Counted from the first letter of the stretch, positions 529 to 14,800 are shown. The stretch: 39,373 nt of DNA from an uncultured Acidimicrobiaceae bacterium (GCA_964423455.1 CAYRFS010000002.1:1-39373), one strand, 5' to 3'. A program made the numbers and translations. The notes: generated by a model from the sequence alone, not told the origin.

Positions 529-649
529 ATCGCCAGCGAGGCCGGCCCCGACTGCGGGGTCGACCTCGGTGAGCTGCGCTCCAGCGGCGGCCCGGGCCAG
601 AGCCCTGAGCCTCGCCTCCGCCAGCGCCGGGTTTACGGCCAGGATGCGC

Positions 650-904
650 TTACCGGTTGCGGCGGGCGCCGTAGCGGCGCTCGAAGCGCTCCACCCGGCC
701 GGCGGTGTCGACGATGCGCATCTGGCCGGTGAAGAACGGGTGGCTGGCGGCCGAGATCTCGACCTTGGCCAGGGGATAGGTGTTGCCGTCTTCCCACTCG
801 ATCGTCTCGTTGGTCCTGACCGTGGACTTGGTCAGGAACGAGAAGTTGGCGGCGGCGTCGACGAACACGACCGGCCGGTAGTCGGGGTGGATATCGGTCT
901 TCAT
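650..904 (-). CDS. rpmE: 50S ribosomal protein L31, cysteine-free (type B-like) form
   Basis: 84 aa. Begins [14 protein letters not shown] and contains [25 protein letters not shown], the L31 signature. There are no Cys residues, so no CxxC zinc ribbon. It lies immediately downstream of rho, as in actinobacterial synteny. Confidence 0.9.
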
Positions 905-932
905 ACCAGCTCCAGTGTGCCGGAACAGCCGC

Positions 933-2951
933 CTAAAGCGACGGGCCCTTGGCGATTTCGTTCAGGAAGTCGGCGTTGGTGCGGAACGACTTCAGGCGGT
1001 CGATGAGCATCTCCACGGCCGGGCCGAAGCTGCCGTCGTCGGCCTTCATGCCCGACAGGACCCGCCGCAGCTTCCACGCCACGAGCTGCTCCTGGCGGTC
1101 GAACAGCAGCTCCTCGTGCCGGGTGGACGAGGCGTCGATGTCTATCGCCGGGTACAGGCGCTTGTCGGCCAGGCGCCGGTCGAGACGGATCTCGCAGTTC
1201 CCGGTGCCCTTGAACTCCTCGAAGATCACCTCGTCCATGCGGGAGCCCGTCTCCACCAGGGCGGTGGCCAAGATGGTGAGCGAACCGCCCTCCTCCAGGT
1301 TGCGGGCGGCGCCGAAGAAGCGCTTCGGGGGGTACAGGGCGCCGGCGTCGACCCCGCCCGACATCGACCGCCCGGTGGGGGGCACGGTCAGGTTGTAGGC
1401 CCGGGCCAGCCGGGTGATCCCGTCGACGATCAGCACCACGTCCTCGCCCGCCTCGACCAGCCGCTTGGCCCGCTCGATGGTGAGCTCGGCCACCGCACAG
1501 TGCTCCTCCGGCGGCCGGTCGAACGTGGAGGCCACCACGTCACCCCGGACGAGATGGCGGCTCATGTCGGTGACCTCCTCGGGCCGCTCGTCGAGCAGCA
1601 GCACGATCAGGCGCACGTCGGGGTTGTTGGTCTCGATGGCCCGGGCGATGTCCTTGATGACCGAGGTCTTGCCCGCCTTGGGGGGCGACACGATCAGGGC
1701 TCGCTGGCCCTTGCCGATGGGGGCCACCAGATCGATGATCCGGGTGCTCATGTTGAGCGGCTCCTCCCGCATCTCCAGGCGGAGGCGCTGGTCGGGGAAG
1801 AGGGGTGTCAGGTCGTCGAAGCGGACCCGGTGACGGCCCTCCTCGGCCGGGAGGTCGTTGACCGTCAGGATCTCGTGGAACCCCGGATTCTTCTCGTTGC
1901 GGTTGGCCGGGCGGGACAGGCCGGTGAGCACGTCGCCCTTGCGCAGGCCGAACTGGCGGACCTGTTTGACCGACACGTAGACGTCGTCCTTGGACGGCAG
2001 GCAGCCGTCGACCCGGAGGAAGCCGTAACCCTCGTCCCGCAGGTCGAGCACGCCGGCCACCGGGATCGGCTCGGCCGAGATCGGCTCGAACGCCACCTCG
2101 TCGCGCTCCCGGCCCCGGCCCCGGCCCCGGCGCCGGCTGCGGCGGTTGCTGGCATCGATGTCGTCGCCCAGCTCCCCCTCGCCGCCTGGGCCCTGGCGGC
2201 TGGCGCCGGCGGGGCCGTCCAGCATCAGCTCCCAGTCGGCCGGCGGCTCGGCGTCGGCGCCGACCTGGTGGTCGCCGCCGCCGTGACGGCCCTCGCGCCG
2301 CTCGTTGCGGTCGTTGCGGTCATTGCGGCGCTCGTTCCGCCCTTCGGCCCGGTTGGCCTGGCGGTCGCCCCGGGACGGGGGGCCGCTCTGCTCCCGGCCG
2401 GCGCCCTGCTCCCGGCTGACGCCCTGGTCCCGGCCGGCGCCCTGCTCCCGGCTGAGGCCCTGCTCCCGGCCGCCGTGGCGGGCCGGCACACGCTCGGCCC
2501 GGGGCGCCGGGCGATCGTCGTGATCGTCGTCGGCACCGCCCTGGTCCCCGTCGTCGGGGGCGGCGTCGATCACGACCGGCTCCCGATGGCCGTTGCTCTC
2601 GGCGGCGTCGGCCCCTTCGTCGGGAGACTCGCCGTCGGCGGCGGAGGCGCCGTCGGCGGCGGCGAGGGCCAACTGGTCGCTGCCCTCGGCCACGGCCGTG
2701 GCCTCGGCCTTGCCATCGGGCCCGGCGTCGCCGTCGGCCCCGGCGGACCCGGCGGCATCGCTCGTGGCCTCGCCGTCGTCGTCGTTGCCCATCAGGTTGG
2801 CGGCGCCCGACAGCTCCATGATCATGTCGATCAGGTCGGACTTGCGGGCCCGGGACGTGGAGGTTCCCCCCAGCGCCGAGATGATCGCCTGCAGCTCGCC
2901 CTTTTCCTTCTTCTCGAGTCCACTGCGCTCAACGATCAGTTGGTCGCTCAT
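933..2951 (-). CDS. rho: Transcription termination factor Rho with a long Arg/Gly/Asp/Glu-rich N-terminal insertion
   Basis: The C-terminal two thirds match Rho: a CSD-like region ([15 protein letters not shown]), Walker A (PPKAGKT) and [11 protein letters not shown]. The ATG at 2951 has GAGGAG 8 nt upstream; the ORF-track start at 2960 is a GTG three codons earlier. Confidence 0.95.
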
Positions 2952-3297
2952 GGGAAGCACTCCTCACGTATGCCAGCGGCCCGCGGCCGCCAACGGACTG
3001 GGGTAGGTAGGAACCCTTCGACATCCACACCTTGATCAAACCCGGACGCCCAGACAGGGCCGGCCGAGGCTGGTCGACAGAACTATCCGCGGACCCGGGG
3101 CGGCTTTCGCCGGTGCACAAGAAGGCACCAGGAGAGATCGGCCGTCACCCGGCCAAACGGAACCACCCCGACCCGCTCTGCTCAGACTACCAACCCGCCC
3201 CGGAAAACGCCGCTTTCGTCCCGCGGCCGCCCGGTTGCCCGCCACGCCGGGTTGGACCGAGCCGGATCGAGCCGGCGGCGCCGCCCGGGAGCCGCCG

Positions 3298-4680
3298 TCA
3301 GGCCGGGAGACCCTCGATCACCTCCACCAGGGCGGCCAGGCTGTTGGCCATGGGCCGGAGGTGCTCGGGCCGGCTGAGCAGCTCGGCCAGGAACGGGGGC
3401 AGGGGCGGGCGGGTGCCCACTGCCTTCTCCACCGCGTCGGGGAACTTGGCCGGGTCGGCGGTGGCCAGCGTGATCATCGGCACTGCGGGGTCTCGCCGGC
3501 AGGCCCGGGCGGCGGCCAGGCCCACCGCAGTGTGGGGGTCGATCACCCGGCCCAGCTCGGCGTGGACCCGGGCCATCTCGGAGAGGGTGCCCTCGTCGTC
3601 GAGGCGGAAGCCCGTCATCTCGGCCCGGATGGCGGTGACCCAGGGCTCGGGCACCTCGACCCGGCCTTCGGCCCGGAACCGGGCGAGGAGGTCGGTGACG
3701 GCGTCGCCGTCGCGGCCCGACGCCTCCCACAGGAGGCGCTCGAAGTTCGACGAGACCTGGATGTCCATGCTCGGGCTGAGCGACGGCTCCACCGTGCGGG
3801 CCTCCAGGGCGCCGGTGGCGAAGAAGCGGGCCAGCACGTCGTTGCGGTTCGACGCCACCACCAACTGGTCCACCGCCAACCCCATCCGCTTGGCGTACCA
3901 CCCGGCCAACACGTTGCCGAAGTTGCCGGTGGGGACGGCGAAGCTGACCGGGCCCCCGCCGGGCGACACGGTGCGGGCCGCGGTGACGTAGTAGACGATC
4001 TGGGCCATGATCCGGGCCCAGTTGATCGAGTTGACGGCCGACAGGTGGCGCCCGGCCAGCTCGGGGGCGGCGAAGGCGGCCTTGACCAGGTCCTGGCAGT
4101 CGTCGAAGGTGCCGTCGACGGCCAGGTTGTGGACGTTGGGGGCGTCGACCGTGGTCATCTGGCGGCGCTGCACCTCCGACACCCGGCCCGCCGGGTGGAG
4201 CACCACGGCGTCCACGGCGGGCCGGCCGGCTAGGGCCTCGATGGCGGCCGAGCCGGTGTCGCCCGAGGTGGCCCCGATCACCACCACCCGCTGGTGGCGG
4301 CGGGCCAGCTCCCGGTCGAGCAGGCGGCCCACCAGCTGGAGGGCCACGTCCTTGAAGGCCAGGGTGGGGCCCTGGGTGAGGTCGAGCAGGTGGTGGTTGT
4401 CGCCCAGGCTGATCACGGGGCAGACGTCCCGGTGGCGGAAGGGCCGGTAGGCGTCGGCCACCAGGGCGGCCCACTCGCCGGCCTCGACGGCGCCCTCGAC
4501 GTAGGGCCACATCACCCGGCGGGCCACCTCGGCGTAGGGCAGGCCGGGCTCCAGCTCGGGCAGGGCAGGCACGGTGGCCGGGCAGTACAGGCCCCCGTCG
4601 GCGGCCAGGCCGGTGAGCAGCACGTCGGCGAAACCCAGCTCGGGAGCGCGGCCCCGGGTGGAGACGTAGGCGATGACCAT
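3298..4680 (-). CDS. thrC: Threonine synthase
   Basis: 460 aa. N-terminus YVSTRGRAPELGFADVLLTGLAADGGLYCP, then a PLP-lysine region (TLAFKDVALQ) and GATSGDTGSAA. A GGAGGAG RBS lies upstream of the ATG at 4680. Confidence 0.95.
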   Translation of the reverse strand: MVIAYVSTRGRAPELGFADVLLTGLAADGGLYCPATVPALPELEPGLPYAEVARRVMWPYVEGAVEAGEWAALVADAYRPFRHRDVCPVISLGDNHHLLDLTQGPTLAFKDVALQLVGRLLDRELARRHQRVVVIGATSGDTGSAAIEALAGRPAVDAVVLHPAGRVSEVQRRQMTTVDAPNVHNLAVDGTFDDCQDLVKAAFAAPELAGRHLSAVNSINWARIMAQIVYYVTAARTVSPGGGPVSFAVPTGNFGNVLAGWYAKRMGLAVDQLVVASNRNDVLARFFATGALEARTVEPSLSPSMDIQVSSNFERLLWEASGRDGDAVTDLLARFRAEGRVEVPEPWVTAIRAEMTGFRLDDEGTLSEMARVHAELGRVIDPHTAVGLAAARACRRDPAVPMITLATADPAKFPDAVEKAVGTRPPLPPFLAELLSRPEHLRPMANSLAALVEVIEGLPA

Positions 4681-4701
4681 CGGCGGCTCCTCCCCCCCGC
4701 C

Positions 4702-5988
4702 CTAGTCCCCGACCACGCGCAGCACGCTGCCGATGCCGGACACGACGTCGAGGCGCCGCAGGTCGGCCAGGGTGGCCCGCAGGTTGCGTTCGATGGCCCG
4801 GTGGGTGATGAAGGCGATGCGGGCCCCACTACCCAATCCCTGCTGCTCCATCGACCGAATCGACACCCCGTGGGCGCCGAAGGCGCCGGCCACGGCGGCC
4901 AGCACGCCGGGGGCGTCGCTGACCTCCAGGTTCACGTAGTAGGCGCTGGCCAGGTCGTCGATGGAGCGGATCTTGGCCCGGGCCCCGGTGGGAACCGGGC
5001 GGTGGTGGCCCCGGAGGCGGTTGGCGGCGGCGTCGATCACGTCGCCCAGCACGGCCGAGGCGGTGGGGCGGCCGCCGGCCCCCCGGCCGTAGAACATGAG
5101 CTCGCCGGCCGCGGTGCCCTCCACGAATACGGCGTTGAAGCTGTCCCGCACCGAGGCCAGGGGGTGGTCGACGGGGACCATGGCGGGGTGGACCCGCACC
5201 CCGATCTCCCGCCGGGCGCTCTCCGTGCCGGCGAACGCCTCGGCCACTGCCAGCAGCTTGATCTCGTAACCCAGGCGGTGGGCGTAGTCGATGTCGGCGT
5301 CCGTGAGGCCGGCGATGCCCTCATGGAACACGTCGCCCGCCACCACCTGCTCGCCGAAGGCGATCGAGGCCAGGATGGCGGCCTTCGCCCCGGCGTCGTA
5401 ACCCTCCACGTCGGCCGTGGGATCGCGCTCGGCGTAGCCCAGGTGCTGGGCCTCGGCCAAGGCCTCGGCGTAGCTCACGCCGTCGGTGCTCATCCGGGTG
5501 AGGATGTAGTTCGTGGTGCCGTTGACGATGCCGAGCAGGCGGGTCACGTCCTCGCCCAGCAGCGATTCCCGCAGGGGGCGCACGATCGGGATGGCCCCGG
5601 CCACGGCCGCCTCGAACAACAGGTCCACTCCGGCGGCGTCGGCGGCGGCGTAGAGGTCGGCTCCCACGTTGGCCAGCAGCTCCTTGTTGCCCGTGACCAC
5701 CGACTTGCCGGAGCGCAGGGCGCTCTGGATGAGGCTGCGGGCCGGCTCGATGCCGCCGATGACCTCCACCACCAGGTCGATCGTGGGGTCGTCGACCACC
5801 GACTGGGCGTCGGTGGTGAGCAGGGCGGGGTCGAGCTCGCCGGCCCGTTCCTTGGTGATGGAGCGGACGGCCACCCGGGCCAGCTCCAGCTCCACCCCGC
5901 TGGTGGCGGCGATGGCAGCCCGGCGTTCGTTCAGCAGCTCGACGAAGGCACCACCGACGATGCCGCAACCCAGGAGTCCGATTCTCAC
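4702..5988 (-). CDS. hom: Homoserine dehydrogenase
   Basis: The GTG at 5988 gives VRIGLLGCGIVGGAFVELL (NAD-binding GxGxxG). A catalytic domain and a C-terminal ACT-like region follow. The longer 482-aa ORF-track version adds an implausible N-terminal extension. Confidence 0.92.
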   Translation of the reverse strand: MRIGLLGCGIVGGAFVELLNERRAAIAATSGVELELARVAVRSITKERAGELDPALLTTDAQSVVDDPTIDLVVEVIGGIEPARSLIQSALRSGKSVVTGNKELLANVGADLYAAADAAGVDLLFEAAVAGAIPIVRPLRESLLGEDVTRLLGIVNGTTNYILTRMSTDGVSYAEALAEAQHLGYAERDPTADVEGYDAGAKAAILASIAFGEQVVAGDVFHEGIAGLTDADIDYAHRLGYEIKLLAVAEAFAGTESARREIGVRVHPAMVPVDHPLASVRDSFNAVFVEGTAAGELMFYGRGAGGRPTASAVLGDVIDAAANRLRGHHRPVPTGARAKIRSIDDLASAYYVNLEVSDAPGVLAAVAGAFGAHGVSIRSMEQQGLGSGARIAFITHRAIERNLRATLADLRRLDVVSGIGSVLRVVGD

Positions 5989-6058
5989 GTGGAACGAGAG
6001 TAGTGGGCGCTGCCCCCCACCCCTCGGCCGCCTTCCGTCACACGGGGTAGGGTGGACC

Positions 6059-7789
6059 ATGGCTGAGTACTCCGTGGTGTGGCCCCGTGGGCCCAAGACG
6101 GCCAAGCTCGTGGAGCTGGCCCCCCGACTCGATTCGTTGGAAGGCCGCAAGGTCGCCTTCCTGTGGGACTACCTGTTCCGGGGCGACGAGATCTTCCCCA
6201 TCCTGGAGCGGGAGCTGGCCGCCCGCTATCCGGGCATCACGTTCGTGCCCTGGAGCGAGTTCGGCACCACCCACGGCGAGGGCGAGCACGAGGTGCTGGC
6301 CAACCTGGCCCACCGCTTCACCGAGCTGGGGGTCGATGCCGTCGTAAGCGGCATGGGTTGTTGAGGCAGCTGCACGCCCGCCGTGTTGCGGGCATCCGCT
6401 GCCGCTGAGCTGGCCGGGGTCCCCACCGCCTCGCTGGTGTGCGAGGGGTTCCTGGGCCAGGCCGCCACCACCGCCGTGGGCCTGGGCATGCCCAACCTGG
6501 CCGTGGCCCCGGTGCCGGGCCACGTCGACACCCAGGCCTACGAGGTGCTGGAGCGCAACGTGGTGGAGGTGACGCTGCCGGCCGTGATCGACAACCTGGT
6601 GTCGCCCCGCCCCGAGGCGGTGGAGGTGGCCGACCCCGAGCGCACCGAGGTCGTGTTCACCGGCTCGGTCGAGGAGGTCAACCGGCTGTTCTACGAGAAC
6701 GGTTGGTCCGACGGGCTGCCGATCGTGGCCCCCACGATCGCGGCGGTGGAGGAGTTCCTGGCCTTCACCGATCTCGACGCCGAGCACAGCTTCGGCCCCC
6801 TCCTGCCCGACAACCGGGCCGCCACCGTGTGGTCGGTGGCCGTAAACGGGGTGATGGCGGGGTGCCGGCCCGAGTACCTGCCGGTGCTGCTGGCCATCGC
6901 CGAGGCGCTGGCCGACCCCGCCTACGGGGTTGAGCACTCGGGCAACACCCCAGGGGCCGACACCCTGATCACGGTCAACGGGCCGATCGCGGCCCAGCTC
7001 GGGTTCAACTGCGAGCAGGGCGTGCTGCGCGACGGGTTCCAGGCCAACACCTCGGTGGGCCGCTTCCTGCGGTTGTATCTGCGCAACGTGGCCGGGTTCC
7101 TGCCGTGGCAGACCGACAAGGCCACCTACGGCAACACCTGGCGGGTGGCCATGGCCGAGAACGAGGCGGCGCTGGCCAAGATGGGCTGGGAGCCGCAGTC
7201 GGTCGACTTCGGCTTCGCCCCGGGCGACAACGCCGTCACCATCTCCCGCTACACCGGCGGCGGGGTGGTCACCTCGGTGTTCGGGTCGACCCCGGAGGAG
7301 ATGGTCGACTACCTGGCCGACGGCCTGGCCAAGATCGGGGGCTGGGAGTACGTGTTCACCATCGGGGTGGCGGGCGGGAGCTACCGCCCGCTGCTGCTGC
7401 TGTCGCCGGTGCTGGCCGAGACGATCGCCAAGGCCGGCTGGAGCCGGGCCGACCTCAAGCGGGCGCTGTGGGAGAAGGCCCGGATCCCGGCCTGGCGCTT
7501 CGAGCACTACCTCGGCCACTGGACGAACCTGGTTCCGGGGCGGCGCTCGCTGGAGGACTTCGTGAACATGCGGCGGGCGCCCAAGGTGTACGCCGAGTCG
7601 GCCGACCCCGAGCGGATGGTGCCGGTGTGCACCGAGCCGGACCACATCTCGATCGCGGTGACCGGCGACCCGCTGCGGACCAACGCCTACGTGTTCGCCC
7701 ACAACGGCATGCTCGGGTTCCCGGTGGCCAAGAAGGTCCGCCTGCCCGACGGTTGGGAGGCCAAGCTTTCCGCCGCCCGGGCCCGGTGA
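6059..7789 (+). CDS. Predicted selenoprotein: an N-terminal UGSC-type redox domain (Sec at TGA 6362-6364) fused to an uncharacterised GW(S/T)DGLP domain
   Basis: ORF 5669..6364 (real start ATG 6059, MAEYSVVWPRG) and ORF 6383..7789 share one frame and are separated only by TGA 6362-6364. Read-through gives ...VVSGMGC-U-GSCTPAVLRASAAAELAGVP.... A stable hairpin starts right after the TGA. The C-terminal roughly 390 aa is paralogous to the next gene. Confidence 0.7.
6365..6403 (+). promoter_or_regulatory. SECIS-like stem-loop immediately 3' of the in-frame UGA
   Basis: Lower stem: GGCAGC (6365-6370) pairs with GCUGCC (6398-6403). Upper stem: GCCCGC (6376-6381) pairs with GCGGGC (6388-6393). The apical loop CGUGUU (6382-6387) contains GU and begins 17 nt after the UGA. 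Confidence 0.55.
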
Positions 7790-7816
7790 ACCGCTCGAAC
7801 CACCTCGAACCTTGTA

Positions 7817-7845
7817 GAGAAATACGGCGCTACGCCGCCTTTCTC
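7817..7845 (+). promoter_or_regulatory. Intergenic stem-loop between the two paralogous genes
   Basis: GAGAAA-UA-CGGCG-CUA-CGCCG-CC-UUUCUC. The outer arms (GAGAAA/UUUCUC) and inner arms (CGGCG/CGCCG) are both complementary. It sits in a locally AT-richer 93-nt spacer. Confidence 0.4.
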
Positions 7846-7882
7846 GACGAAGTTCGGCGGCGGGGCGCGATTTGAGCGCCAG

Positions 7883-9118
7883 GTGAGCGGGGCCGAGTCG
7901 CTGTGGGTGGTCGTGCCAACGGCTCAGCGGCGGGACGGTAGCTGGATCGACGACACCCTGGTGACCCGCACGGCCGAGGCGGCGGCCGCCGCCGCCCGGG
8001 AGCCGGGCGGGGGCGGGCTGGGACCGTCGGCGGCCCGGGCCCCCGACGCCGGGCGGTTCCCCCGCCAGCGGGTGGAGTTGTTCCGGGGGCCGGGGGCGGC
8101 CGAGGCCGTCAACATCGCGTTCCGCCGCCGGGGCTGGACCGACGGGCTGCCGGTGGTGCCGCCCACCACGGCCCGGGTGGCCGACCTGGTGGCCGTGTCG
8201 GGCCGCAACCCCCAGGAGGTGGTGGGCGAGCTGGCCCCGCTGGGCGGGCTGGCCACCGTGGAGCGGGTGGCGGCCAACGCCGTGCTGGCGGGGTGCGGGC
8301 CGGAGCAGTTCGGCTACGTGCTGGCGGCGGTGAGCGCGGTGTGCGACCCGGCGTTCAACCTGGCCGGGGTGCAGACCACCGACGAGAACGTGGCCCCGCT
8401 GGTGGTGATCAGCGCCCCGGCGGCGGCTCGGGAGCGGGCCGAGCTGAACGCCGGGTTCGGGGTGCTCGGGCCGGGCTGGCGGGGCAACGCAACCATCGGG
8501 CGGGCCGTGCGGTTCGCCCTCAACAACCTGGGCGGGGGCTGGCCCGGGGTGGTGGCCTTCGCCGGGGCCGGCCAGCCCGGCCGCTACACGCTGGTGGTGC
8601 CGGAAGACGACGAGACCTGCCCCTGGCCGCCGCTGCGGGTGGAGCTGGGGCACAGGCTCGACGACGCCGTGGTGGTGGTGGGCCGGGCCGAGAGCGCGGT
8701 GAACGTGACCGGTGGCGTGGCCGAGGTCGTGTCGGCCATGGGGTCGGCGGCGTCGGCGTTCACCGCCCTGCACGGCGGGTCGGCGGCGGTGCTGCTGGCG
8801 CCCCATACGGCCCGGGAGCTGGCCGGGCGGGGCCTGTCCCGGCGGGGCGTGGCCGAGCGGTTGTGCGCCGAGGCCCGGATCCCGGCCGACGTGTGGCGCC
8901 GGTTCTGGGTGGCCGGGGCGGTGAAGGGGGCCGTTGCGCTCGCCGGCGCCATCGGCAGTGGTGACGGCAGTGGCGACGGCGGCGGGGTGCCGGTGCTGGC
9001 CGACCCCGATCGGCTGCTGGTGATGGTGGCCGGGGGAACGATCCCGATCCCCCAGCACGTCTGGTTCCCCGGCTGGGGCTTCCCCCCGGCCCACGTGGTC
9101 CGGGTCGTGGGCCGCTAA
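7883..9118 (+). CDS. Uncharacterised protein, standalone paralog of the C-terminal domain of the preceding selenoprotein
   Basis: 411 aa. It shares colinear motifs with 6059..7789: RGWTDGLPVVPPT versus NGWSDGLPIVAPT, NAVLAGCGPEQ versus NGVMAGCRPEY, and NATIGRAVRFALNNLGG versus NTSVGRFLRLYLRNVAG. It lacks the UGSC domain. Confidence 0.7.
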   Translation: MSGAESLWVVVPTAQRRDGSWIDDTLVTRTAEAAAAAAREPGGGGLGPSAARAPDAGRFPRQRVELFRGPGAAEAVNIAFRRRGWTDGLPVVPPTTARVADLVAVSGRNPQEVVGELAPLGGLATVERVAANAVLAGCGPEQFGYVLAAVSAVCDPAFNLAGVQTTDENVAPLVVISAPAAARERAELNAGFGVLGPGWRGNATIGRAVRFALNNLGGGWPGVVAFAGAGQPGRYTLVVPEDDETCPWPPLRVELGHRLDDAVVVVGRAESAVNVTGGVAEVVSAMGSAASAFTALHGGSAAVLLAPHTARELAGRGLSRRGVAERLCAEARIPADVWRRFWVAGAVKGAVALAGAIGSGDGSGDGGGVPVLADPDRLLVMVAGGTIPIPQHVWFPGWGFPPAHVVRVVGR

Positions 9119-9278
9119 CGCGGCGCGTCTGTGCGTCCCCCACGACCGTTCTGGCGTCGTGAAACCTGCGAGTTGCGGAGGTTTCGCTGCGCAGTTCGCC
9201 GGCCGGACGCGGTCTCCCTGGCGCAGAACGGGGGGGGGGCGGGGGGCGGATGACCGGGCGTCATGAAAGTATGGGCCG

Positions 9279-10100
9279 GTGCCGGTGGCGACGAGCGATG
9301 ACGGGACCCGGATCCATTGGGCCGAGGTGGGCGACGGGCCTCCGGTGGCGCTGGTCCACGGGCTCACCGAGTCGTCCCGGGCCTGGGATCCGATCGTCGA
9401 CCGGCTGGCCGCCGACCATCGGGTGATCACCCTCGACCTGCGGGGCCACGGGCGGTCGCCACACCCGGCGACGGGCGACTACGGCCACCGGGCGCTGGCG
9501 TCCGATCTGGCGGCCGTCCTCGACACGGCCGAGGTCGGCCACGCCGCCCACCTCGTGGGCCATTCCCGGGGCGGGCTGGTGGTGGCGGCGGTCGGTGCCG
9601 CCCGGCCGGTGGCGTCGGTGGTGGTCGTCGACCAGCCGCTCCGGCTGGCTGGCTTCCGGGACCAGGTGGCGTGGTTCGAGGCCGAGCTACGGGATCCGGC
9701 CACGTTTCCGGCGGTGATGGCGGCGGTGTTCGAGTTCAGCCTGGGCGAGCGCCTGGGGGCCGACGAGAAGCAGCGGCTGGCGGCGCTGCGCCGGGCGGAT
9801 CAGGAGGTCGTTCTCGGCGTGTGGTCGTTCCTGCTGGAGACGCCGCCGGCCGAGATCGAGACCATGATCGACGGGGCCATCGCCACTGGCGCCGCCGGGC
9901 CCCACCTGACGCTGCTCGGCACCGAGCCCGAGCCCGACTACCCGGCCTGGCTGGCCGAGCGGATACCGGGAGCGGTGGTCGAGGTGTGGGCGGGGTGCGG
10001 GCACTACCCCCACCTGGTCGACCCTGATCGGTTCACGGCGCGGCTTCGGGCGTTGTGGTCCGGGCGTAGCCCGTCGTCGGGTCCCACCGCCGGTCGGTAG
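9279..10100 (+). CDS. Alpha/beta hydrolase fold protein
   Basis: VALVHGLTESSRAWDPIVDRLAADHRVITLDLRGHGRS (the HG oxyanion region), a nucleophile elbow GHSRGG, and a C-terminal GCGHYPHL histidine. Confidence 0.85.
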   Translation: MPVATSDDGTRIHWAEVGDGPPVALVHGLTESSRAWDPIVDRLAADHRVITLDLRGHGRSPHPATGDYGHRALASDLAAVLDTAEVGHAAHLVGHSRGGLVVAAVGAARPVASVVVVDQPLRLAGFRDQVAWFEAELRDPATFPAVMAAVFEFSLGERLGADEKQRLAALRRADQEVVLGVWSFLLETPPAEIETMIDGAIATGAAGPHLTLLGTEPEPDYPAWLAERIPGAVVEVWAGCGHYPHLVDPDRFTARLRALWSGRSPSSGPTAGR

Positions 10101-10208
10101 GGCGGCCGGTCACAAGGGGTCAGCAGGGCGACGAGGTGGAGAGACCGCGGGCCGCGCTGTTGGAACGGTCGGCCACCGAACACCGGTGAGTACGCCCTAC
10201 GGGCGCGC

Positions 10209-11237
10209 TCAGTGGGACAGGTCGTTGATGACGGCCCGGCCCACGTAGGCGCCGGCTTCGAGCTCGTCGAAGATCTCGGGCAGGGCCGACAGGGGGCCCA
10301 CCCGGCCGATGTGGCTGCGCACCTTGCCTTCGGCCGCCATGTCCACCAGCTCCCGCATGTCCTGCACGTTGCCGACGGCGGAGTACATGATGGTGAAGCC
10401 CTTGCCGAAGAACTCCATCGGGTTGAGCTGGATGGGGCCCTCGCTGGCCGGCGGGATGCCCACGGCCACGTAGATGCCGCCCCGGCGCAGGACCTTGAAC
10501 CCGAGCTGGAACCCGGCGATGCGGGCGGCGAACACGAGGCAGCCGTCGGCTCCGCCCATCTCCTTGCCCAGGGTGGTGGCCGCCTCGCTGGCGTCGATGG
10601 CCCAGTCGGCCCCCAGCGACTCGATGAAGGCCAGGCGCTCGGCACCGACGTCGATACCGGCCACCTTGTATCCGTAGGCCTTGGCGATCTGGACGGCGTA
10701 GTGACCGAGCCCGCCGGCGGCGCCGACGATGGCCACGGTGCGGCCGGGCAGCACCCCGTGGCGGAACAGCTTCTTCACCGCCCCGTAGGCAGTGAGGCCA
10801 CCGCAGGCCAGGGGCGACTCGTCGTCGCCCACCGCGCTGGGCAGGGTCACCAGCGACTTGGCGTAGACGTTCATCTCCTCGGCGAAGGTTCCGAGGATGC
10901 CTTTGGTCTGGGCGCACAGGCGGGGCTCGCCACCGAGGCAGAACTCGCAGGCCCCGCACCAGTAGCCACCGCCGCTGCCGCCCAGGCCCACGATCACCCG
11001 GTCTCCCACGGAGACGAACCGGTCGGCGCCGGGGCCGAGGGCCTCGACGACGCCGATGCCCTCGTGGCCCAGCTTGCCGGCCGACGGCATGCCGTCCCAG
11101 TGGCCCCGGGCGATGTGGAGGTCGGAGTGGCAGACACCGGCGGTCAGCAGGCGCAGGCGGGCCTGATCAGGCCCCGGGTCACGCACGTTCTCGTCGGTGA
11201 TGACCACCTTGCCGTCGTCGAATCGAGCGGTCTTCAT
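10209..11237 (-). CDS. Zinc-dependent alcohol dehydrogenase (MDR family)
   Basis: GVCHSDLH, GHEGIGVV, the structural-zinc cysteine cluster CGACEFCLGGEPRLC, and the NAD fold GAAGGLG. Confidence 0.9.
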   Translation of the reverse strand: MKTARFDDGKVVITDENVRDPGPDQARLRLLTAGVCHSDLHIARGHWDGMPSAGKLGHEGIGVVEALGPGADRFVSVGDRVIVGLGGSGGGYWCGACEFCLGGEPRLCAQTKGILGTFAEEMNVYAKSLVTLPSAVGDDESPLACGGLTAYGAVKKLFRHGVLPGRTVAIVGAAGGLGHYAVQIAKAYGYKVAGIDVGAERLAFIESLGADWAIDASEAATTLGKEMGGADGCLVFAARIAGFQLGFKVLRRGGIYVAVGIPPASEGPIQLNPMEFFGKGFTIMYSAVGNVQDMRELVDMAAEGKVRSHIGRVGPLSALPEIFDELEAGAYVGRAVINDLSH

Positions 11238-11315
11238 CGCTGGGTTCCCTTCCCCCGGTACCGGTGGGCCGAGTATGGCACCGGTGCCGATGGGCGGGCC
11301 AAGAGACGCCCGGCA

Positions 11316-12830
11316 TCAGGGGCCGGTTGTGGCGATCGGGCCCGGGTCGTCGACGGTGGCGTTGGGCCCCGGCGGCGCGGCGAGGGTGGGGTTGGTCGTC
11401 GGGGGAGCGGTCTCGAAGGTGGTGGCCGGCTGGGCCGGGTAGCGGGCGGTCCAGGTGGCCAGATCGGTGTAGGTGACGGCGTTGGCCACGGCAACGGCCT
11501 GGCCGTTGGTCAGCCCGTGGCCGACGAGCTGGGCCCACCAGCCGTGGTCGTCGAGGGGCCAGGTCAGGGTGATCCCACCGTCCTGCTCGCTCAGGTAGCC
11601 GTCCCGACCGCCTACGGTCACCCGGCTGTGGTCGGATCGGGGATCGATGGCCGGCTGGGCCGTGATCATGATGCGGCTGGCGCCGGTGCCGTAGATGACG
11701 CTCAGCCAGGGCAGCGGCTCGGCCACCGGGCCAGCGGGGCCGGCCAGGACGACCAAACCCGAAGGGAGCTGCCCCTGCACCGCCACGCTGGGCAGGCCGG
11801 TGGCCTGGGGCGTCACCCTCAGCGCGGTGATGAGGTCGTCTACCACCAGGTCGCTGCCCGGGGCGAGGTCGACCGTCATCGTGGCCCCGGCCTCGTCCCA
11901 CTGATAGCGCTGGAACGCCACCCCCGGGTTCACGTTGACAACGCCCGGTCTCTCCAGCCACTCGGCCTGCAGCGCCTCGACCACCGCATGATCGTCGATC
12001 TCGAGGTCGACCTGGAACGAGGTGGGCAGGTCGGCGGGATCGACCAGATCGAGCAGCTCGGGCCGGCTGGCGTAGTGCTGTCGGAAGGTGTCCCAGGTCG
12101 CGTCGGGGCCGGTGTAGGTGAACGAGCGCACCACGAGGGCGTCTTCGAGCAGGGTCCGGAGCGGGTCGATCTCGGCTTGCGACGCTCCAGGCCGCAGCCA
12201 GACGACCAGATCGGCCGTTCCGTCCGTCCCGTACGGCAGGCGGACCGTGCGGGCCCCAACCGATCGGGTAACGGGCGCCACCAAACCCGACGTCAGGTCC
12301 ACCGGGTCGATCGGGTCGGCGGAGACCTCCCCGCCCCCGGTGGCGGGGGCGGCTTCGACCGACACGGTGACCAGGTCGCGGACGTTCTCGCCATCGATCC
12401 GACCCAGCACCAGGGCCGGACCCGTCATCGTGAGCGAATCGCGTTGGATCACGAAGCCGGCCTCCGGGCCGAGGCCGAACGACGCCAGCACCGCCGGATC
12501 GAGCTCGGGATAGATCCGGGCACCGTCGGCAGAGGGCCCGGTGATCGGGACCAGCGGCTCCTGCCCGCCCCGCTGCCACAGGGCCAGAGTAAGCGCGACG
12601 CCCGCCACCAGCGCCGCCGCCGCGAACACGAGCCGTCCCCCCCGGGATAGCGGGCGTCCCGGCCCGAGGTGGCTGGCAGTCCGGCCCGGCCACTCCCCCG
12701 GCCCGGCGATCTGGTCGAGGCGGTCGTCCACCGCCACCCGGGCCGCCCGTTGGCGGAGGGCCCCGGTGGCGCGGGGTGCGAGGTGGTCGCCGTCTGTGTG
12801 GTCGCTCGTCATCCCAGGGCCGCTGGTCAT
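11316..12830 (-). CDS. Single-pass membrane protein translationally coupled to the ECF sigma factor. Putative anti-sigma factor with an FtsX-ECD-like extracytoplasmic domain.
   Basis: The ATG at 12830 overlaps the sigma gene stop (TGATG). One TM helix (LVFAAAALVAGVALTLALW) lies about 70 aa from the N-terminus. The external segment ASQAEIDPLRTLLEDALVVRSFTYTGPDATWDTFRQHY...DLPTSFQVDLEIDDHAVVEALQAEWLERPGVVNV resembles the FtsX extracellular domain. There is no HxxxCxxC zinc anti-sigma motif. Confidence 0.65.
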   Translation of the reverse strand: MTSGPGMTSDHTDGDHLAPRATGALRQRAARVAVDDRLDQIAGPGEWPGRTASHLGPGRPLSRGGRLVFAAAALVAGVALTLALWQRGGQEPLVPITGPSADGARIYPELDPAVLASFGLGPEAGFVIQRDSLTMTGPALVLGRIDGENVRDLVTVSVEAAPATGGGEVSADPIDPVDLTSGLVAPVTRSVGARTVRLPYGTDGTADLVVWLRPGASQAEIDPLRTLLEDALVVRSFTYTGPDATWDTFRQHYASRPELLDLVDPADLPTSFQVDLEIDDHAVVEALQAEWLERPGVVNVNPGVAFQRYQWDEAGATMTVDLAPGSDLVVDDLITALRVTPQATGLPSVAVQGQLPSGLVVLAGPAGPVAEPLPWLSVIYGTGASRIMITAQPAIDPRSDHSRVTVGGRDGYLSEQDGGITLTWPLDDHGWWAQLVGHGLTNGQAVAVANAVTYTDLATWTARYPAQPATTFETAPPTTNPTLAAPPGPNATVDDPGPIATTGP

Positions 12831-13318
12831 CAGAGGGCCTTTCGCATCGTGGTGAGGGCCCGGTGGAGCCAGGGGCCGACGGAGCCGGGCCGGCAGCCGA
12901 GGGAGGCGGCGATCTCGGCTTCGGTGCGGCCCTCGTAGAACCGCAGCACCACCACCGCCCGCTGGTTGAACGGGAGGGCGGCGATGACGTCCCACAGGAT
13001 CTCGTTGTCCCCGGCGGCCGCGGGGGTGGGGGCTTCGGCCTGGCGGGGGGCCATGGCCCGCCACCGGCCCTCGCGACGGGCCCGGTCGCGACAGCCGTTG
13101 AGCACGGAGCGGTTGAGGTAGGGGCCGGGATCGGCCACCGAGCCCCACCGTTGGTACAGGGCGAGGAAGGCATCGTGCACGACGTCGTTGGCGGCGGCCT
13201 CGTCGCCCGCCAGCAACAGGGCGGCCCGGCGGACCTGTACCGGGTTCTCGAACCGGTAGAAGGCCTCGAACGTGGAGCTGGTGGGGGCCGCCACCTCGGC
13301 CGGCGGTGCTGTTGCCAT
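12830..13318 (-). CDS. ECF-type RNA polymerase sigma-70 family factor
   Basis: Region 2 (DVVHDAFLALYQRWGSV...YLNRSVLNGCRDRARR) and region 4 (LPFNQRAVVVLRFYEGRTEAEIAASLGCRPGSVGPWLHRA). The ATG at 13318 has GGAGAGG upstream. An alternative in-frame ATG lies at 13351. Confidence 0.85.
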   Translation of the reverse strand: MATAPPAEVAAPTSSTFEAFYRFENPVQVRRAALLLAGDEAAANDVVHDAFLALYQRWGSVADPGPYLNRSVLNGCRDRARREGRWRAMAPRQAEAPTPAAAGDNEILWDVIAALPFNQRAVVVLRFYEGRTEAEIAASLGCRPGSVGPWLHRALTTMRKAL

Positions 13319-13415
13319 CACCCTCTCCACGCCGGGTAGGGCCGGATCCATACGAACCGAGCGAAATCAGGACCTGATCTCGGGCGCCTCGGCCCGCGGG
13401 CGAGCTGGCACGGGC

Positions 13416-14696
13416 TCAGCCGACGTCGGTGGCGAGCAGATCGTCCCAGGTCTCGCGGCGGACCACGAGGCGGGCGTCGCCGTTGCGGACGAACACCACC
13501 GGGGGCCGGGTGACCTTGTTGTAGTTGGAGCCCATGGAGTGGCCGTAGGCCCCGGTGACGGGGGTGGCGAGGATGTCACCGACGGCAATGTCGGCCGGGA
13601 CCTTGGCGTCACGGACCAGTAGGTCGCCCGACTCGCAGTGCTTGCCCACCACCCGGGCCGCCCGGTGGCGCTCACCGGTCACCGAGCGGGCCAGGAACGT
13701 CTCGTAGCCCGAGCCGTAGAGCACGGGGCGGGGGTTGTCGCTCATGCCCCCGTCGACCGCGACATAGGTGCGGATGCCGGGCAGGTCCTTGATCGTGCCC
13801 ACCGTGTAGAGGGTGACGGCAGCGGCGGCCACGATCGAGCGGCCGGGCTCGATCCCGATGCGGGCCGAGATGCCGGCATCGGCCGCCGCCTTGGCGATGA
13901 TGCGGGACCACTGGGTGATGGTAGGGGCTTCCTCCCCCTCCACGTAGGCCACGCCGAGGCCGCCCCCCACCACCAGCTCGGGCAGGTCGAGGGGGTTGGC
14001 GAAGCGGCCTAGCACGTCGATGGCGGCGGCGAAGCTGTCGACCCGGAACACCTGGGAGCCGATGTGGGCGTGGATGCCGACGAGGTTGACCGAACGGGAG
14101 GCCCGGGCCCGTTCGACGGCGGCGGTGGCGGCCCCGGTGGACACGGTGAAGCCGAATTTCGAGTCGTCGTGACCGGTGGCGATGAACTCGTGCGTCTCGG
14201 CCTTGATGCCGGGGGTGATGCGCAGCAACACGTCGGGGGCCTGATAGGCGGGGCCGGCTTCGGCGGCCAGGGCGTCGAGGCGGTCGAGCTCGTCGAAGGA
14301 GTCGACCACGATGCGACCGATACCGACGCTCAGGGCGTAGCGCAGCTCGTCGGCCGACTTGTTGTTGCCGTGGAACACGAGCCGGCTGGCCGGTACGCCG
14401 GCGGCCAGGCAGGTGTGGAGCTCGCCGCCGGTGGCCACGTCGAGCCCCAGGCCTTCTTCGTGGGCGAGGCGGGCCATGGCCTTGCACAGGAACGCCTTGG
14501 AGGCGTAGACGGCGTGGTCGCCGAAGGCCTCGGCCGCCTCGCGGCACCGGGCCCGGAGATGGTCTTCGTCGTAGACGAACAGGGGCGTGCCCAGCTCGCG
14601 TGCGAGGTCGAGCGTGTCGCACCCTCCGATCAGCAGCTGGCCGGCGGGGCCGACCGAGGCGTTGTCGGGAAGGAGCGACCAGGGGACGGGGATCAT
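13416..14696 (-). CDS. lysA: Diaminopimelate decarboxylase
   Basis: From the ATG at 14696: MIPVPWSLLP...GTPLFVYDEDHLRARC...YASKAF (PLP lysine), GHDDSKFG, GIHAHIGSQ, CESGD. The ORF-track 511-aa version is over-extended at the N-terminus. Confidence 0.93.
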   Translation of the reverse strand: MIPVPWSLLPDNASVGPAGQLLIGGCDTLDLARELGTPLFVYDEDHLRARCREAAEAFGDHAVYASKAFLCKAMARLAHEEGLGLDVATGGELHTCLAAGVPASRLVFHGNNKSADELRYALSVGIGRIVVDSFDELDRLDALAAEAGPAYQAPDVLLRITPGIKAETHEFIATGHDDSKFGFTVSTGAATAAVERARASRSVNLVGIHAHIGSQVFRVDSFAAAIDVLGRFANPLDLPELVVGGGLGVAYVEGEEAPTITQWSRIIAKAAADAGISARIGIEPGRSIVAAAAVTLYTVGTIKDLPGIRTYVAVDGGMSDNPRPVLYGSGYETFLARSVTGERHRAARVVGKHCESGDLLVRDAKVPADIAVGDILATPVTGAYGHSMGSNYNKVTRPPVVFVRNGDARLVVRRETWDDLLATDVG

Positions 14697-14755
14697 CGGG
14701 CGGGCTCGCTGGTTCTCACGCTGTCGTTTGTGCTCGGGGTTGTAGCAGCCGGGGC

Positions 14756-14800
14756 CGCATCGGCTCGGGTCGCATCGGCTCGGGTCACATCTGCTCGGGG
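14756..14800. repeat. Three tandem copies of a 15-bp unit spanning the argS stop codon
   Basis: cgcatcggctcgggt appears at 14756-14770 and 14771-14785. A degenerate copy, cacatctgctcgggg, lies at 14786-14800 and encodes the last argS residues (PEQM-stop on the minus strand). Confidence 0.75.

What the first reader, a model, noticed from the sequence alone, without database searches (positions are those of the whole stretch)
6059..9118. Uncharacterised two-gene module: a UGSC-selenodomain fusion plus a standalone paralog sharing GW(S/T)DGLPxVxPT and AGCxPE motifs
The C-terminal roughly 390 aa of the selenoprotein and the whole next gene (7883..9118) are clear paralogs with colinear conserved blocks:
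- NGWSDGLPIVAPT / RGWTDGLPVVPPT;
- NGVMAGCRPEYLPVLLA / NAVLAGCGPEQFGYVLA;
- NTSVGRFLRLYLRNVAG / NATIGRAVRFALNNLGG.

I cannot assign this domain to any characterised family. A Sec-based UxxC redox module is fused to one copy, and both copies keep an invariant Cys. This suggests a heteromeric redox enzyme, perhaps a reductase in the style of the GrdB/PrdB selenoenzymes, whose substrate is unknown. This is the best candidate for a previously undescribed system in the window.
Basis: inference. Interest (0 to 1): 0.8.

Follow-up and report, generated by a model that had tools for sequence, protein, structure and literature searches.

The report
UGSC selenoprotein fused to unknown cysteine domain
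Two adjacent genes encode a selenocysteine redox module fused to a widespread but uncharacterised, fold-orphan cysteine domain plus a second copy of that domain; relatives in bacteria and archaea link the pair to thioredoxin-reductase-type electron donors, so it is probably a selenol/thiol-driven reductase with an unknown substrate.

Summary
Gene A (6059-7789) reads through an in-frame TGA (6362-6364) inside a UGSC domain (Pfam PF24696). Its C-terminal ~390 aa are paralogous to gene B (7883-9118): BLASTP E 6e-31, 29% identity. The shared "AGC domain" has no Pfam, NCBIfam or PDB-sequence match. A confident AlphaFold model (pLDDT 90) has no convincing Foldseek match in the PDB.

The module is not unique to this genome:
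- The domain profile hits about 7,000 protein clusters at 50% identity.
- In related loci the interrupting stop is TGA in 58 of 58 cases, followed by a conserved hairpin; 11 homologues carry Cys there.
- The AGC cysteine is invariant in 109 of 109 members.

UGSC and the AGC domain are linked by fusion or by adjacency from Acidimicrobiia to haloarchaea. Recurrent partners are thioredoxin-reductase-like flavoproteins (13 of 81 loci, plus haloarchaeal and Variovorax operons), a fused ferredoxin-thioredoxin-reductase domain, and CcdA in exported forms.

The best reading is a selenol/thiol relay reductase with an A/B pseudo-heterodimeric catalytic core and an unknown substrate. Homology to GrdB/PrdB is not supported.

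Novelty is tempered. UGSC selenoproteins, and a "UGSC/Unknown_1" fusion, were described bioinformatically in 2007-2008, but their function is still unknown.

The parts
6059..7789 (+). Gene A: 576-residue selenoprotein, consisting of a UGSC domain, a linker and the 'AGC domain' (stop codon included)
   Evidence: Single frame with one TGA. Homologues are 64-95% identical across several phyla. The start matches homologues (YEVVWPRG...).
6074..6598 (+). UGSC domain (residues 6-180), predicted flavodoxin-like alpha/beta fold
   Evidence: PF24696 at 101.9 bits. AF2 model of the Cys-form homologue P0242. Foldseek hits are only generic flavodoxin/Rossmann-like domains.
6362..6364 (+). In-frame TGA = selenocysteine 102 of the U-G-S-C motif (Cys105 codon at 6371-6373)
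   Evidence: TGA in 58/58 interrupted homologues, never TAA or TAG. Cys is aligned here in 11 uninterrupted homologues.
6365..6403 (+). SECIS-like hairpin: lower stem 6365-6370/6398-6403, upper stem 6376-6381/6388-6393, apical loop CGUGUU 6382-6387
   Evidence: Folds. The upper stem is conserved in most loci, and hairpins with different sequences occupy the same place in distant loci (L056, L060, L063, L070, L037, L039). The z-score of the fold alone is not significant in this 71% GC sequence.
6611..7786 (+). AGC domain of A (residues 185-576), an uncharacterised domain
   Evidence: No Pfam, NCBIfam or PDB match. AF2 pLDDT 90.2, pTM 0.91. Best PDB Foldseek hit has TM 0.21 and E 4e-3.
6863..6865 (+). 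Codon of invariant Cys269 (MAGC motif), at the N-terminal end of a predicted helix
   Evidence: 109/109 conserved. Secondary structure: Cys85 of the fragment lies between H73-82 and H87-100.
7883..9118 (+). Gene B: 411-residue standalone AGC-domain paralogue with no UGSC domain (stop codon included)
   Evidence: E 6e-31 against the C-terminal part of A. At least 2,026 homologues, all unnamed and without Pfam domains. Encoded directly downstream of A orthologues in 12 or more loci from several phyla.
8294..8296 (+). Codon of Cys138 of B, equivalent to Cys269 of A
   Evidence: Alignments; sequence.

Best explanation
The module encodes a selenol/thiol-relay oxidoreductase whose catalytic part is a previously uncharacterised 'AGC domain'.

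Shown:
- A = UGSC domain (Sec102-x-x-Cys105, at a strand-to-helix junction of a flavodoxin-like fold) fused to an AGC domain.
- B = a second AGC domain.
- Both AGC domains keep an absolutely invariant Cys, together with invariant Asp218, Asn330, Arg335, Asn343, Glu367 and Trp377 (numbering of A).

Inferred:
- The AGC domain of A and protein B form a pseudo-symmetric heterodimer that binds the substrate.
- The invariant Cys, which caps a helix N-terminus, reacts with the substrate and becomes oxidised or covalently modified.
- Sec102 of the tethered UGSC domain resolves it, forming a selenenylsulfide that Cys105 then takes over.
- The resulting U-x-x-C selenenylsulfide is re-reduced by a disulfide reductase.

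In many relatives that reductase is encoded next door: a thioredoxin-reductase-like flavoprotein with a CxxC motif. Other lineages use a fused ferredoxin:thioredoxin-reductase catalytic domain, or the membrane electron shuttle CcdA for secreted versions. In this window no such gene is linked, so an unlinked TrxR/Trx system would have to serve.

The substrate is unknown. The invariant Arg and Asn residues, and the recurrent di-/tricarboxylate transporter and MmgE/PrpD neighbours in some lineages, weakly suggest a small carboxylated compound.
For: Sec and SECIS.

Invariant Cys and polar residues in both paralogues.

UGSC and the AGC domain are linked both by fusion and as neighbouring separate genes:
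- fusions in about 60 loci;
- standalone UGSC selenoprotein genes next to standalone AGC genes in L013, L036, L046 and L064;
- Haloterrigena turkmenica operon UGSC, AGC, TrxR-like;
- Variovorax operon trxB ... AGC, UGSC.

Electron donors:
- a TrxR-like gene is adjacent on the same strand in 13/81 loci spanning Alpha- and Betaproteobacteria, Acidobacteria, Lachnospiraceae and Nocardioides, with CxxC motifs;
- P0444 is a UGSC-AGC-FeThRed_B fusion;
- CcdA/DsbD_TM follows the signal-peptide-bearing Cys forms in Bacillota;
- Sporomusa has the fusion followed by an FAD oxidoreductase.

Heterodimer idea:
- the A-B order is conserved in the window, L002-4, L006-9, L011, L012, L049, L061 and L081;
- about 25 loci carry two or more family genes;
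- single chains of roughly 710-740 aa carry two AGC domains, both with the motifs.

Carboxylate hint: MatC and DASS transporters and PrpD in L043, TctC adjacent in 16 loci, PrpD in 11 loci.
Against: - No biochemical data exist for any member. The 2022 and 2026 reviews still list UGSC as of unknown function.
- No distance between Sec102 and Cys269 could be measured.
- No multimer prediction was possible, so the A-B interaction is inferred from gene order and fusions only.
- In the window itself no reductase is linked.
- Only 13/81 loci have an adjacent TrxR-like gene.
- TctC genes are very numerous in the betaproteobacterial loci themselves (up to about ten per 21-kb locus), so their adjacency may mean little.
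- Many A genes lack a B orthologue within 10 kb (L010, L014-L031), so B is not obligatory for the family.
Confidence: 0.55

Rival explanations
1. A GrdB/PrdB-style reductase. The UGSC domain would be a remote relative of the selenoprotein B subunits. The invariant Gly-Cys of the AGC domain would be a self-cleavage site that generates a pyruvoyl group, as in GrdE/PrdA (this chemistry is from my own knowledge of those enzymes). The pyruvoyl group would bind an amine substrate that Sec then cleaves reductively.
For: The U-x-x-C motif is shared with PrdB/GrdB (table in PMC2398784). There is a weak PrdB hit around the Sec (TIGR04483, E 0.077). TrxR genes are adjacent, as in grd operons. The Gly-Cys pair is invariant.
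Against: The PrdB hit scores 12 bits against a 300-bit cut-off. 0 of 72 UGSC domains hit the GRDB Pfam family even at E <= 1. In the model the invariant Cys lies between two helices at a helix N-cap; the known pyruvoyl-forming sites, as I recall them, lie in beta-turns. No GrdE/PrdA/GrdA/GrdC/GrdD-like genes are present in the window or in the related loci examined.
Confidence: 0.07
2. A sulfur or selenium trafficking module rather than a substrate reductase. The invariant Cys would carry a persulfide or perselenide (like TusA/DsrE/rhodanese-type carriers), and the UGSC selenol/thiol pair would pass it on or release it.
For: The single invariant Cys at a helix N-terminus is followed by a conserved Pro-rich stretch (MAGC-x-PE-x-x-P). 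Two paralogous carriers occur in tandem. The module is associated with thiol-redox partners.
Against: A ~350-residue domain with many invariant polar residues (Asp, Asn, Arg, Glu, Trp) looks more like an enzyme active site than a carrier. No cysteine desulfurase, SelD, rhodanese or Dsr/Tus genes were seen among the recurrent neighbours.
Confidence: 0.12
3. The AGC domains form a non-redox enzyme (isomerase, racemase, hydratase or lyase) that uses paired cysteines from two subunits as acid/base or nucleophile. The UGSC domain would only keep these cysteines reduced, or regulate them.
For: One invariant Cys per domain, and two domains per module or chain. Neighbours such as MmgE/PrpD, CoA-transferase III and acyl-CoA dehydrogenases are typical of organic-acid catabolism. 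There is a very weak fold resemblance to class I fumarate hydratase and to the cyanuric acid hydrolase 'Toblerone' fold.
Against: Dedicating a Sec-containing domain and, in many genomes, a private TrxR-like, FTR or CcdA electron supply is an expensive way merely to protect a thiol. The fold hits are not significant (TM about 0.2). hhalign against E. coli FumA gives 0.2% probability.
Confidence: 0.2
4. The TGA at 6362 is a genuine stop. The locus would then encode a 101-residue protein and a separate 468-residue protein starting at GTG 6383, which is how most automatic gene calls have it.
For: Gene callers in public data split the gene this way (468-aa entries; 101-aa plus 468-aa calls). No Sec machinery or tRNA-Sec lies in the 39-kb window.
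Against: The stop is always TGA (58/58) and sits exactly where 11 homologues have Cys in a C-x-x-C motif. The Pfam UGSC domain spans the stop. A conserved hairpin follows it.
Confidence: 0.04

Closest known systems
UGSC-containing selenoprotein family (Pfam PF24696; NCBIfam NF041046; Zhang & Gladyshev 2007/2008, PMC1976440 and PMC2398784), including the reported 'UGSC/Unknown_1' fusion
   Same: The N-terminal domain of A is a clear PF24696 member with the U-G-S-C motif, a TGA codon and a SECIS-like hairpin. The 2008 paper already notes a fusion of UGSC to a conserved unknown domain with a conserved Cys.
   Different: A scores only 44.9 bits against the short standalone equivalog NF041046 (cut-off 125). 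The published fusion figure is held only as an image, so I could not verify that Unknown_1 is this AGC domain. The 2008 paper guessed a thioredoxin-like fold; the model here is flavodoxin-like. The B paralogue and the TrxR, FTR and CcdA links are not mentioned in the papers I could search.
Glycine reductase / D-proline reductase selenoprotein B systems (GrdB/PrdB with a pyruvoyl subunit, fed by TrxR-Trx)
   Same: A U-x-x-C selenoprotein, a multi-subunit enzyme and a thioredoxin-reductase gene in the operon. The logic of a selenol attacking an enzyme-bound intermediate, followed by disulfide-relay regeneration, may be similar.
   Different: No detectable homology. No GrdA/C/D/E or PrdA partners. 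The catalytic partner here is a different, fold-orphan domain. Most hosts are aerobes of soil and water rather than Stickland fermenters.
Thioredoxin-dependent repair and detoxification reductases (methionine sulfoxide reductases, peroxiredoxins, arsenate reductases), including their exported forms fed by CcdA/DsbD
   Same: The proposed cycle has the same shape: a catalytic Cys is oxidised, a second Cys or Sec resolves it, and TrxR/Trx, or CcdA for extracytoplasmic enzymes, recycles the pair. Sec/Cys interchange occurs within the family.
   Different: No sequence or fold relationship. The redox carrier here is a dedicated flavodoxin-fold domain rather than thioredoxin.
Class I (Fe-S) fumarate hydratase N-terminal domain and the cyanuric acid hydrolase 'Toblerone' fold
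   Same: These are the best, but non-significant, Foldseek PDB hits for the AGC domain model (E 4e-3 to 0.1, TM about 0.2-0.33).
   Different: The TM-scores are far below fold-level similarity. hhalign against E. coli FumA gives 0.2% probability. There is no Fe-S cysteine triad: only one Cys is invariant.

Membership tests
UGSC family (Pfam PF24696) | Domain HMM score above the gathering threshold | tested here: met
   101.9 bits against a cut-off of 25, residues 6-180.
UGSC family (Pfam PF24696) | U/C-G-S-C redox motif with Sec encoded by an in-frame TGA that aligns with Cys in homologues | tested here: met
   GMGC-U-GSC at 6350-6373. TGA in 58/58 interrupted homologues, Cys in 11 uninterrupted ones.
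UGSC family (Pfam PF24696) | Bacterial SECIS-type hairpin shortly downstream of the UGA | tested here: met
   Hairpin at 6365-6403, with the apical loop 18-23 nt after the UGA. It is conserved, with alternative stems in distant loci. The energy z-score alone is uninformative at 71% GC.
NCBIfam NF041046 UGSC_fam (equivalog, short standalone form) | Whole-protein score at or above the curated cut-off of 125 bits | tested here: not met
   44.9 bits. A is a long fusion form, not the ~150-190-aa standalone protein.
GrdB/PrdB selenoprotein B (Pfam GRDB; TIGR04483) | Sequence-profile match | tested here: not met
   TIGR04483 at 12.4 bits against a cut-off of 300, E 0.077. No GRDB hit in 72 UGSC domains at E <= 1.
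GrdB/PrdB selenoprotein B (Pfam GRDB; TIGR04483) | Operon partners (pyruvoyl proprotein GrdE/PrdA, GrdA, GrdC/D) | tested here: not met
   Pfam scans of window neighbours and of recurrent neighbours in 81 loci show none.
Thioredoxin-fold oxidoreductases (as guessed for UGSC in 2008) | Thioredoxin fold | tested here: not met
   The AF2 model of the Cys-form homologue P0242 has a run of alternating strands and helices. Foldseek finds flavodoxin, MetH-B12, MccF and periplasmic-binding-protein-like domains, not thioredoxins.
Class I fumarate hydratase / Toblerone-fold hydrolases | Fold-level structural similarity (TM above about 0.5) or profile similarity | tested here: not met
   TM 0.17-0.33. 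hhalign probability 0.2% against FumA.
Selenoprotein (general) | The host encodes the Sec insertion machinery (selA, selB, selC, selD) | not testable with these tools
   None of these genes lies in the 39-kb window. The rest of the genome is not available.

The most novel reading that the evidence does not exclude
The AGC domain is a new enzyme fold that carries out a reduction not yet assigned to any protein family. It would be powered by a dedicated flavodoxin-fold Sec/Cys carrier (UGSC) and private TrxR-like, FTR or CcdA electron inputs. That would make a three-component redox system conserved from Acidimicrobiia to haloarchaea and gut anaerobes, and it would explain one of the most abundant orphan selenoprotein families in aquatic metagenomes.
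Probability: 0.4. Interest if true: 0.8.

Novelty: new member of a known kind. Interest (0 to 1): 0.58.

Why it matters
UGSC-containing proteins are among the most abundant selenoproteins in ocean and freshwater metagenomes. In the GOS survey they were the fifth most abundant family, with 255 Sec sequences (PMC2398784). Reviews from 2022 and 2026 still list them without a function.

This analysis turns the orphan into a defined, testable system:
- an obligate partner domain with one invariant Cys, no Pfam model and no solved structural relative;
- a second paralogous subunit;
- identified electron donors.

It also points to cultured, tractable hosts:
- Vineibacter terrae CC-CFT640, with the Sec form and A-B-TrxR order;
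- Nocardioides sediminis KCTC 19271, with a Cys form next to a TrxR-like gene;
- Haloterrigena turkmenica DSM 5511, with a three-gene Cys operon;
- Variovorax sp. SRS16 and Sporomusa termitida.

If the chemistry is new, it would add an enzyme class and explain why aerobic aquatic bacteria invest in selenium.

Tried and rejected
1. Pfam, NCBIfam and PDB-sequence searches found nothing for the AGC domain or for B, either as single sequences or as an 85-sequence profile.
2. Foldseek of the AGC model against the PDB and BFVD gave only non-significant hits. The fumarate-hydratase lead was tested with hhalign against E. coli FumA and rejected.
3. GrdB/PrdB homology was rejected.
4. A full-length A model with U replaced by C, meant to examine Sec-Cys proximity, failed. 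I modelled the Cys-form homologue P0242 instead.
5. I tried to verify that 'Unknown_1' of the 2008 paper is this domain. Figure S1A is held only as an image, and the stored part of Dataset S1 lacks the UGSC section.
6. A formal fixed-register covariation count on the SECIS hairpin was not run. Distant loci keep a hairpin but in a shifted register, and coding constraint confounds the close ones.
7. The window's own neighbours (alpha/beta hydrolase, Zn-ADH) are not recurrent in related loci, so they give no functional clue.
8. Read-through of A's terminal TGA into B was considered, because the two genes share a frame with no stop at 7790-7882. The frame relation is not conserved in L003, L004 or L006, so I rejected it.
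9. My third protein search was accidentally run with only the first 226 residues, so it targeted the UGSC domain and not the full length.
Full report
**1. What is in the sequence**

On the + strand an ORF starts at ATG 6059 and runs in one frame to the stop at 7787-7789. It has a single internal TGA at 6362-6364, inside the peptide ...VVSGMGC-[TGA]-GSCTPAVLRAS....
- Residues 6-180 match Pfam PF24696 'UGSC family' (101.9 bits, cut-off 25).
- The short standalone equivalog NF041046 is matched only weakly (44.9 bits against 125).
- The remaining ~390 residues match nothing in Pfam or NCBIfam at E <= 1 and nothing among PDB sequences.

The next gene runs from GTG 7883 to the stop at 9116-9118 and encodes 411 aa with no Pfam or NCBIfam match. 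The C-terminal 392 aa of A and the whole of B align colinearly (BLASTP E = 6e-31, 29% identity over 366 columns).

**2. The TGA is a selenocysteine codon**

In the genomic loci fetched with the domain profile, the UGSC reading frame is interrupted by exactly one stop in 58 cases, and that stop is TGA in all 58. Eleven homologues are uninterrupted and carry Cys at that position: C-C-GSC, A-C-GSC, or G-C-G(I/L)-C. The archaeal and Variovorax standalone UGSC proteins also have Cys there.

Twelve nucleotides after the UGA lies the hairpin GCCCGC-CGUGUU-GCGGGC (6376-6393). It is extended by a lower stem 6365-6370/6398-6403. The upper stem is kept in nearly all close loci. Distant loci with a different peptide sequence have different hairpins at the same place: L056, L060, L063, L070, L037 and L039. 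The folding-energy z-score alone is not informative in 71% GC DNA. From my own knowledge, the position of the apical loop (18-23 nt after the UGA) fits the bacterial SECIS pattern.

No tRNA-Sec or sel genes lie in the window. For a 39-kb window that says nothing either way.

**3. The shared domain is large, conserved and orphan**

I call it the AGC domain, after its invariant Ala/Ser-Gly-Cys.
- At least 4,937 proteins match the A copy and at least 2,026 match B. The best 120 A orthologues are 64-95% identical across Acidimicrobiia, Nitrospinae, Alphaproteobacteria, Tectimicrobiota and Binataceae. The best 120 B orthologues are 50-92% identical.
- A profile of both paralogues hits 7,078 clusters at 50% identity in 1.84 billion representatives, 2,010 of them at E <= 1e-30.
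- A tblastn of plasmid records finds 24 records, including haloarchaea, Variovorax, Paracoccus, Neorhizobium, Vibrio and Sporomusa. Where a feature is annotated under the match, it is 'hypothetical protein'.
- In 109 family members from 81 loci, Cys269 and Gly268 are 109/109, Asn330 and Arg335 are 109/109, Glu367 is 108/108, Asp218 is 107/108 and Asn343 is 108/109. Trp377 is nearly invariant.
- AlphaFold2 with an 85-sequence alignment gives a confident model (pLDDT 90.2, pTM 0.91). In it the invariant Cys sits between two helices, at the N-terminus of the second.
- Foldseek against the PDB gives no hit at E <= 0.001. The best hits are class I fumarate hydratase (E 4e-3, TM 0.21), its archaeal alpha subunit (TM 0.33 on the target) and cyanuric acid hydrolases (TM about 0.2). 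BFVD gives nothing. hhalign of the family profile against E. coli FumA gives 0.2% probability.

I therefore treat the domain as having no characterised or solved relative detectable with these tools.

**4. The UGSC domain**

A model of the Cys-form homologue P0242 from Paracoccus sp. MA is mostly above pLDDT 90 over residues 21-190 (pLDDT 80 overall because of a frameshifted tail). It shows alternating strands and helices, with the C/U-x-x-C at a strand-to-helix junction. Foldseek returns only generic flavodoxin-like or Rossmann-like domains: the flavodiiron flavodoxin domain, the MetH B12 domain, the MccF N-domain and periplasmic binding proteins, with E about 5e-4 and TM about 0.3. The 2008 suggestion of a thioredoxin-like fold (PMC2398784) is not borne out. 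A GrdB/PrdB relationship is not detectable either.

**5. Genomic associations**

These carry the functional inference.

(a) UGSC and AGC domains are linked in two ways. They are fused in one chain in about 60 of the loci. They also occur as adjacent separate genes:
- standalone ~190-aa UGSC selenoprotein genes next to standalone AGC genes in L013, L036, L046 (twice) and L064;
- UGSC, AGC, TrxR-like in Haloterrigena turkmenica pHTUR01;
- AGC followed by UGSC, with trxB upstream, in Variovorax sp. SRS16.

(b) A ~310-aa pyridine-nucleotide-disulfide oxidoreductase of the low-Mr thioredoxin reductase type lies adjacent on the same strand in 13 of 81 loci. It carries a CxxC motif: CAWC, CAGC or CAKC.
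- A-B-TrxR order: L003, L004, L006, L007, L008, L012 and L049 (Vineibacter terrae).
- TrxR-A order: L010, L014, L015, L043 and L050 (Nocardioides sediminis).
- A-TrxR order: L017.

(c) One representative protein (P0444) fuses UGSC, AGC and a ferredoxin:thioredoxin reductase catalytic domain.

(d) Cys forms with signal peptides in Bacillota are followed by a CcdA/DsbD transmembrane electron shuttle.

(e) In Sporomusa termitida the fusion is followed by an FAD-dependent oxidoreductase.

These independent links all point to a dithiol/selenothiol relay that needs reducing power.

**6. The second paralogue**

B orthologues lie directly downstream of A orthologues in the window, L002-L004, L006-L009, L011, L012, L049, L061 and L081. 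These come from Acidimicrobiia, Alphaproteobacteria, Burkholderiales, Methylomirabilota and Deferrimicrobiaceae. In Nitrospinae the two genes carry consecutive locus tags.
- About 25 loci carry two or more family genes.
- Proteins of roughly 710-740 aa contain two AGC domains in tandem. In P0371 both keep the TDG(W/L)P and MAGC motifs.
- This is what one expects if two AGC domains work as a (pseudo)dimer, but no interaction was computed.
- B is not universal: many A genes (L010, L014-L031) have no B within 10 kb.

**7. Substrate**

The substrate is unknown. The window's own neighbours are uninformative. The module sits inside an argS-lysA ... hom-thrC-rho housekeeping cluster, followed by an alpha/beta hydrolase and a Zn-ADH that are not recurrent neighbours elsewhere.

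In other lineages there is a loose theme of organic-acid handling:
- TctC receptors adjacent in 16 loci, all or nearly all Betaproteobacteria, where such genes are also very numerous in the loci themselves;
- MmgE/PrpD in 11 loci;
- a Lachnospiraceae locus with three A copies interleaved with MatC and DASS carboxylate transporters, a TrxR-like gene, a nitroreductase and PrpD.

Together with the invariant Arg and Asn residues, this weakly suggests a small anionic substrate. I give it low weight.

**8. Most likely mechanism** (steps marked as inferred)

The AGC domains of A and B form the substrate site (inferred). The invariant helix-capping Cys reacts with the substrate and ends up oxidised or adducted (inferred). 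Sec102 of the tethered UGSC domain resolves it, and Cys105 takes over to give a selenenylsulfide (inferred by analogy with U/C-x-x-C proteins). A TrxR-like, FTR or CcdA-fed system regenerates it (the association is shown, the function inferred). Confidence is about 0.55.

Rivals:
- a non-redox Cys enzyme kept reduced by UGSC (0.2);
- a sulfur/selenium carrier (0.12);
- a pyruvoyl GrdE/PrdA-like reductase (0.07);
- TGA as a true stop (0.04).

**9. Comparison with what is known, and novelty**

UGSC-containing selenoproteins were reported in 2007/2008 (PMC1976440, PMC2398784). The GOS paper lists them as the fifth most abundant selenoprotein family and mentions a 'UGSC/Unknown_1' fusion with a conserved Cys. 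I could not verify that Unknown_1 is the AGC domain, but no other recurrent UGSC fusion partner appeared. Reviews from 2022 and 2026 still give no function, and NCBI names homologues of A 'UGSC family (seleno)protein'.

The instance in this window is therefore a new member of a catalogued but functionally orphan family. I did not find the following in the searchable literature:
- the flavodoxin-like fold of UGSC;
- the fold-orphan status and invariant active-site residues of the AGC domain;
- the conserved B paralogue and the tandem fusions;
- the TrxR-like, FTR and CcdA links;
- the archaeal three-gene operon.

**10. Verdict**

This is an abundant orphan selenoprotein system made directly testable, with about a 40% chance that it represents a new enzyme class.

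Noticed in passing
window 16703-22000: tRNA-Arg(CCG) at 16703-16775 is followed by about 5 kb of lower GC (61-67%, against 70-76% elsewhere). This stretch lacks ORFs with the high GC3 typical of the genome and encodes a Kelch-motif protein, a GNAT acetyltransferase and a YjbR-like protein. It may be an island integrated next to the tRNA.
   Followed up: partly
window 933-16416: The housekeeping genes rho, thrC and hom (minus strand, 933-6150) and lysA and argS (13416-16416) are separated by the A-B module plus an alpha/beta hydrolase, a Zn-ADH and an FtsX-ECD protein. In my recollection these housekeeping genes are usually contiguous in Actinobacteria, so the module appears to be inserted in that cluster.
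   Followed up: partly
window 9230-9249: A run of ten G followed by CGGGGGGCGG lies in the intergenic region between gene B and the alpha/beta hydrolase gene. Its purpose is unknown.
   Followed up: no
window 7787-7882: The terminal TGA of A and the start of B are in the same reading frame, with no stop in the 93-nt spacer. The frame relation differs in L003, L004 and L006, so a conserved read-through fusion is unlikely.
   Followed up: partly
L002 11488-11490: The B orthologue of Acidimicrobiales MAG BC3.65 carries an in-frame TAG upstream of the AGC motif. It is a pseudogene or an assembly error, not a Sec codon.
   Followed up: yes
P0444, P0371, P0405, P0469 (representative library): Unusual architectures occur in the family. 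P0444 is UGSC-AGC-FeThRed_B. P0371 (about 717 aa) carries AGC-AGC in tandem. P0405 and P0469 (about 1,250 and 1,226 aa) combine UGSC-AGC with pentapeptide repeats or copper amine oxidase N-terminal-like domains.
   Followed up: partly
L068, L072, L078, L079, L055, L058; P0287, P0332: Cys-form (G-C-G-I/L-C) family members from Bacillota, Muribaculaceae, Planctomycetota and Kiritimatiellae have N-terminal signal-peptide-like segments. The Bacillota ones are followed by CcdA and preceded by a two-component system. The Muribaculaceae ones lie between rubrerythrin and an FGE-sulfatase-like gene.
   Followed up: partly
P0243: A homologue held without contig information reads G-G-A-C where others have U/C-G-S-C. 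Either it is a true Gly variant or its UGA was translated as Gly (code 25) by its source.
   Followed up: no
L043 (Lachnospiraceae RUG11180) 200-14615: Three UGSC-AGC genes (two Cys forms, one Sec form) lie in one locus. They are interleaved with MatC-type and DASS carboxylate transporters, a LysR regulator, a TrxR-like gene, a nitroreductase, MmgE/PrpD and a Dak2-domain gene. This is the most operon-like context seen.
   Followed up: partly
L085 (Haloterrigena turkmenica pHTUR01) 3564-9021: The archaeal UGSC, AGC, TrxR-like operon is preceded by a Zn-ADH-type gene and an alpha/beta hydrolase. The window has the same two kinds of neighbour, but the proteins are only distantly related and the pairing does not recur in the other loci.
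   Followed up: yes
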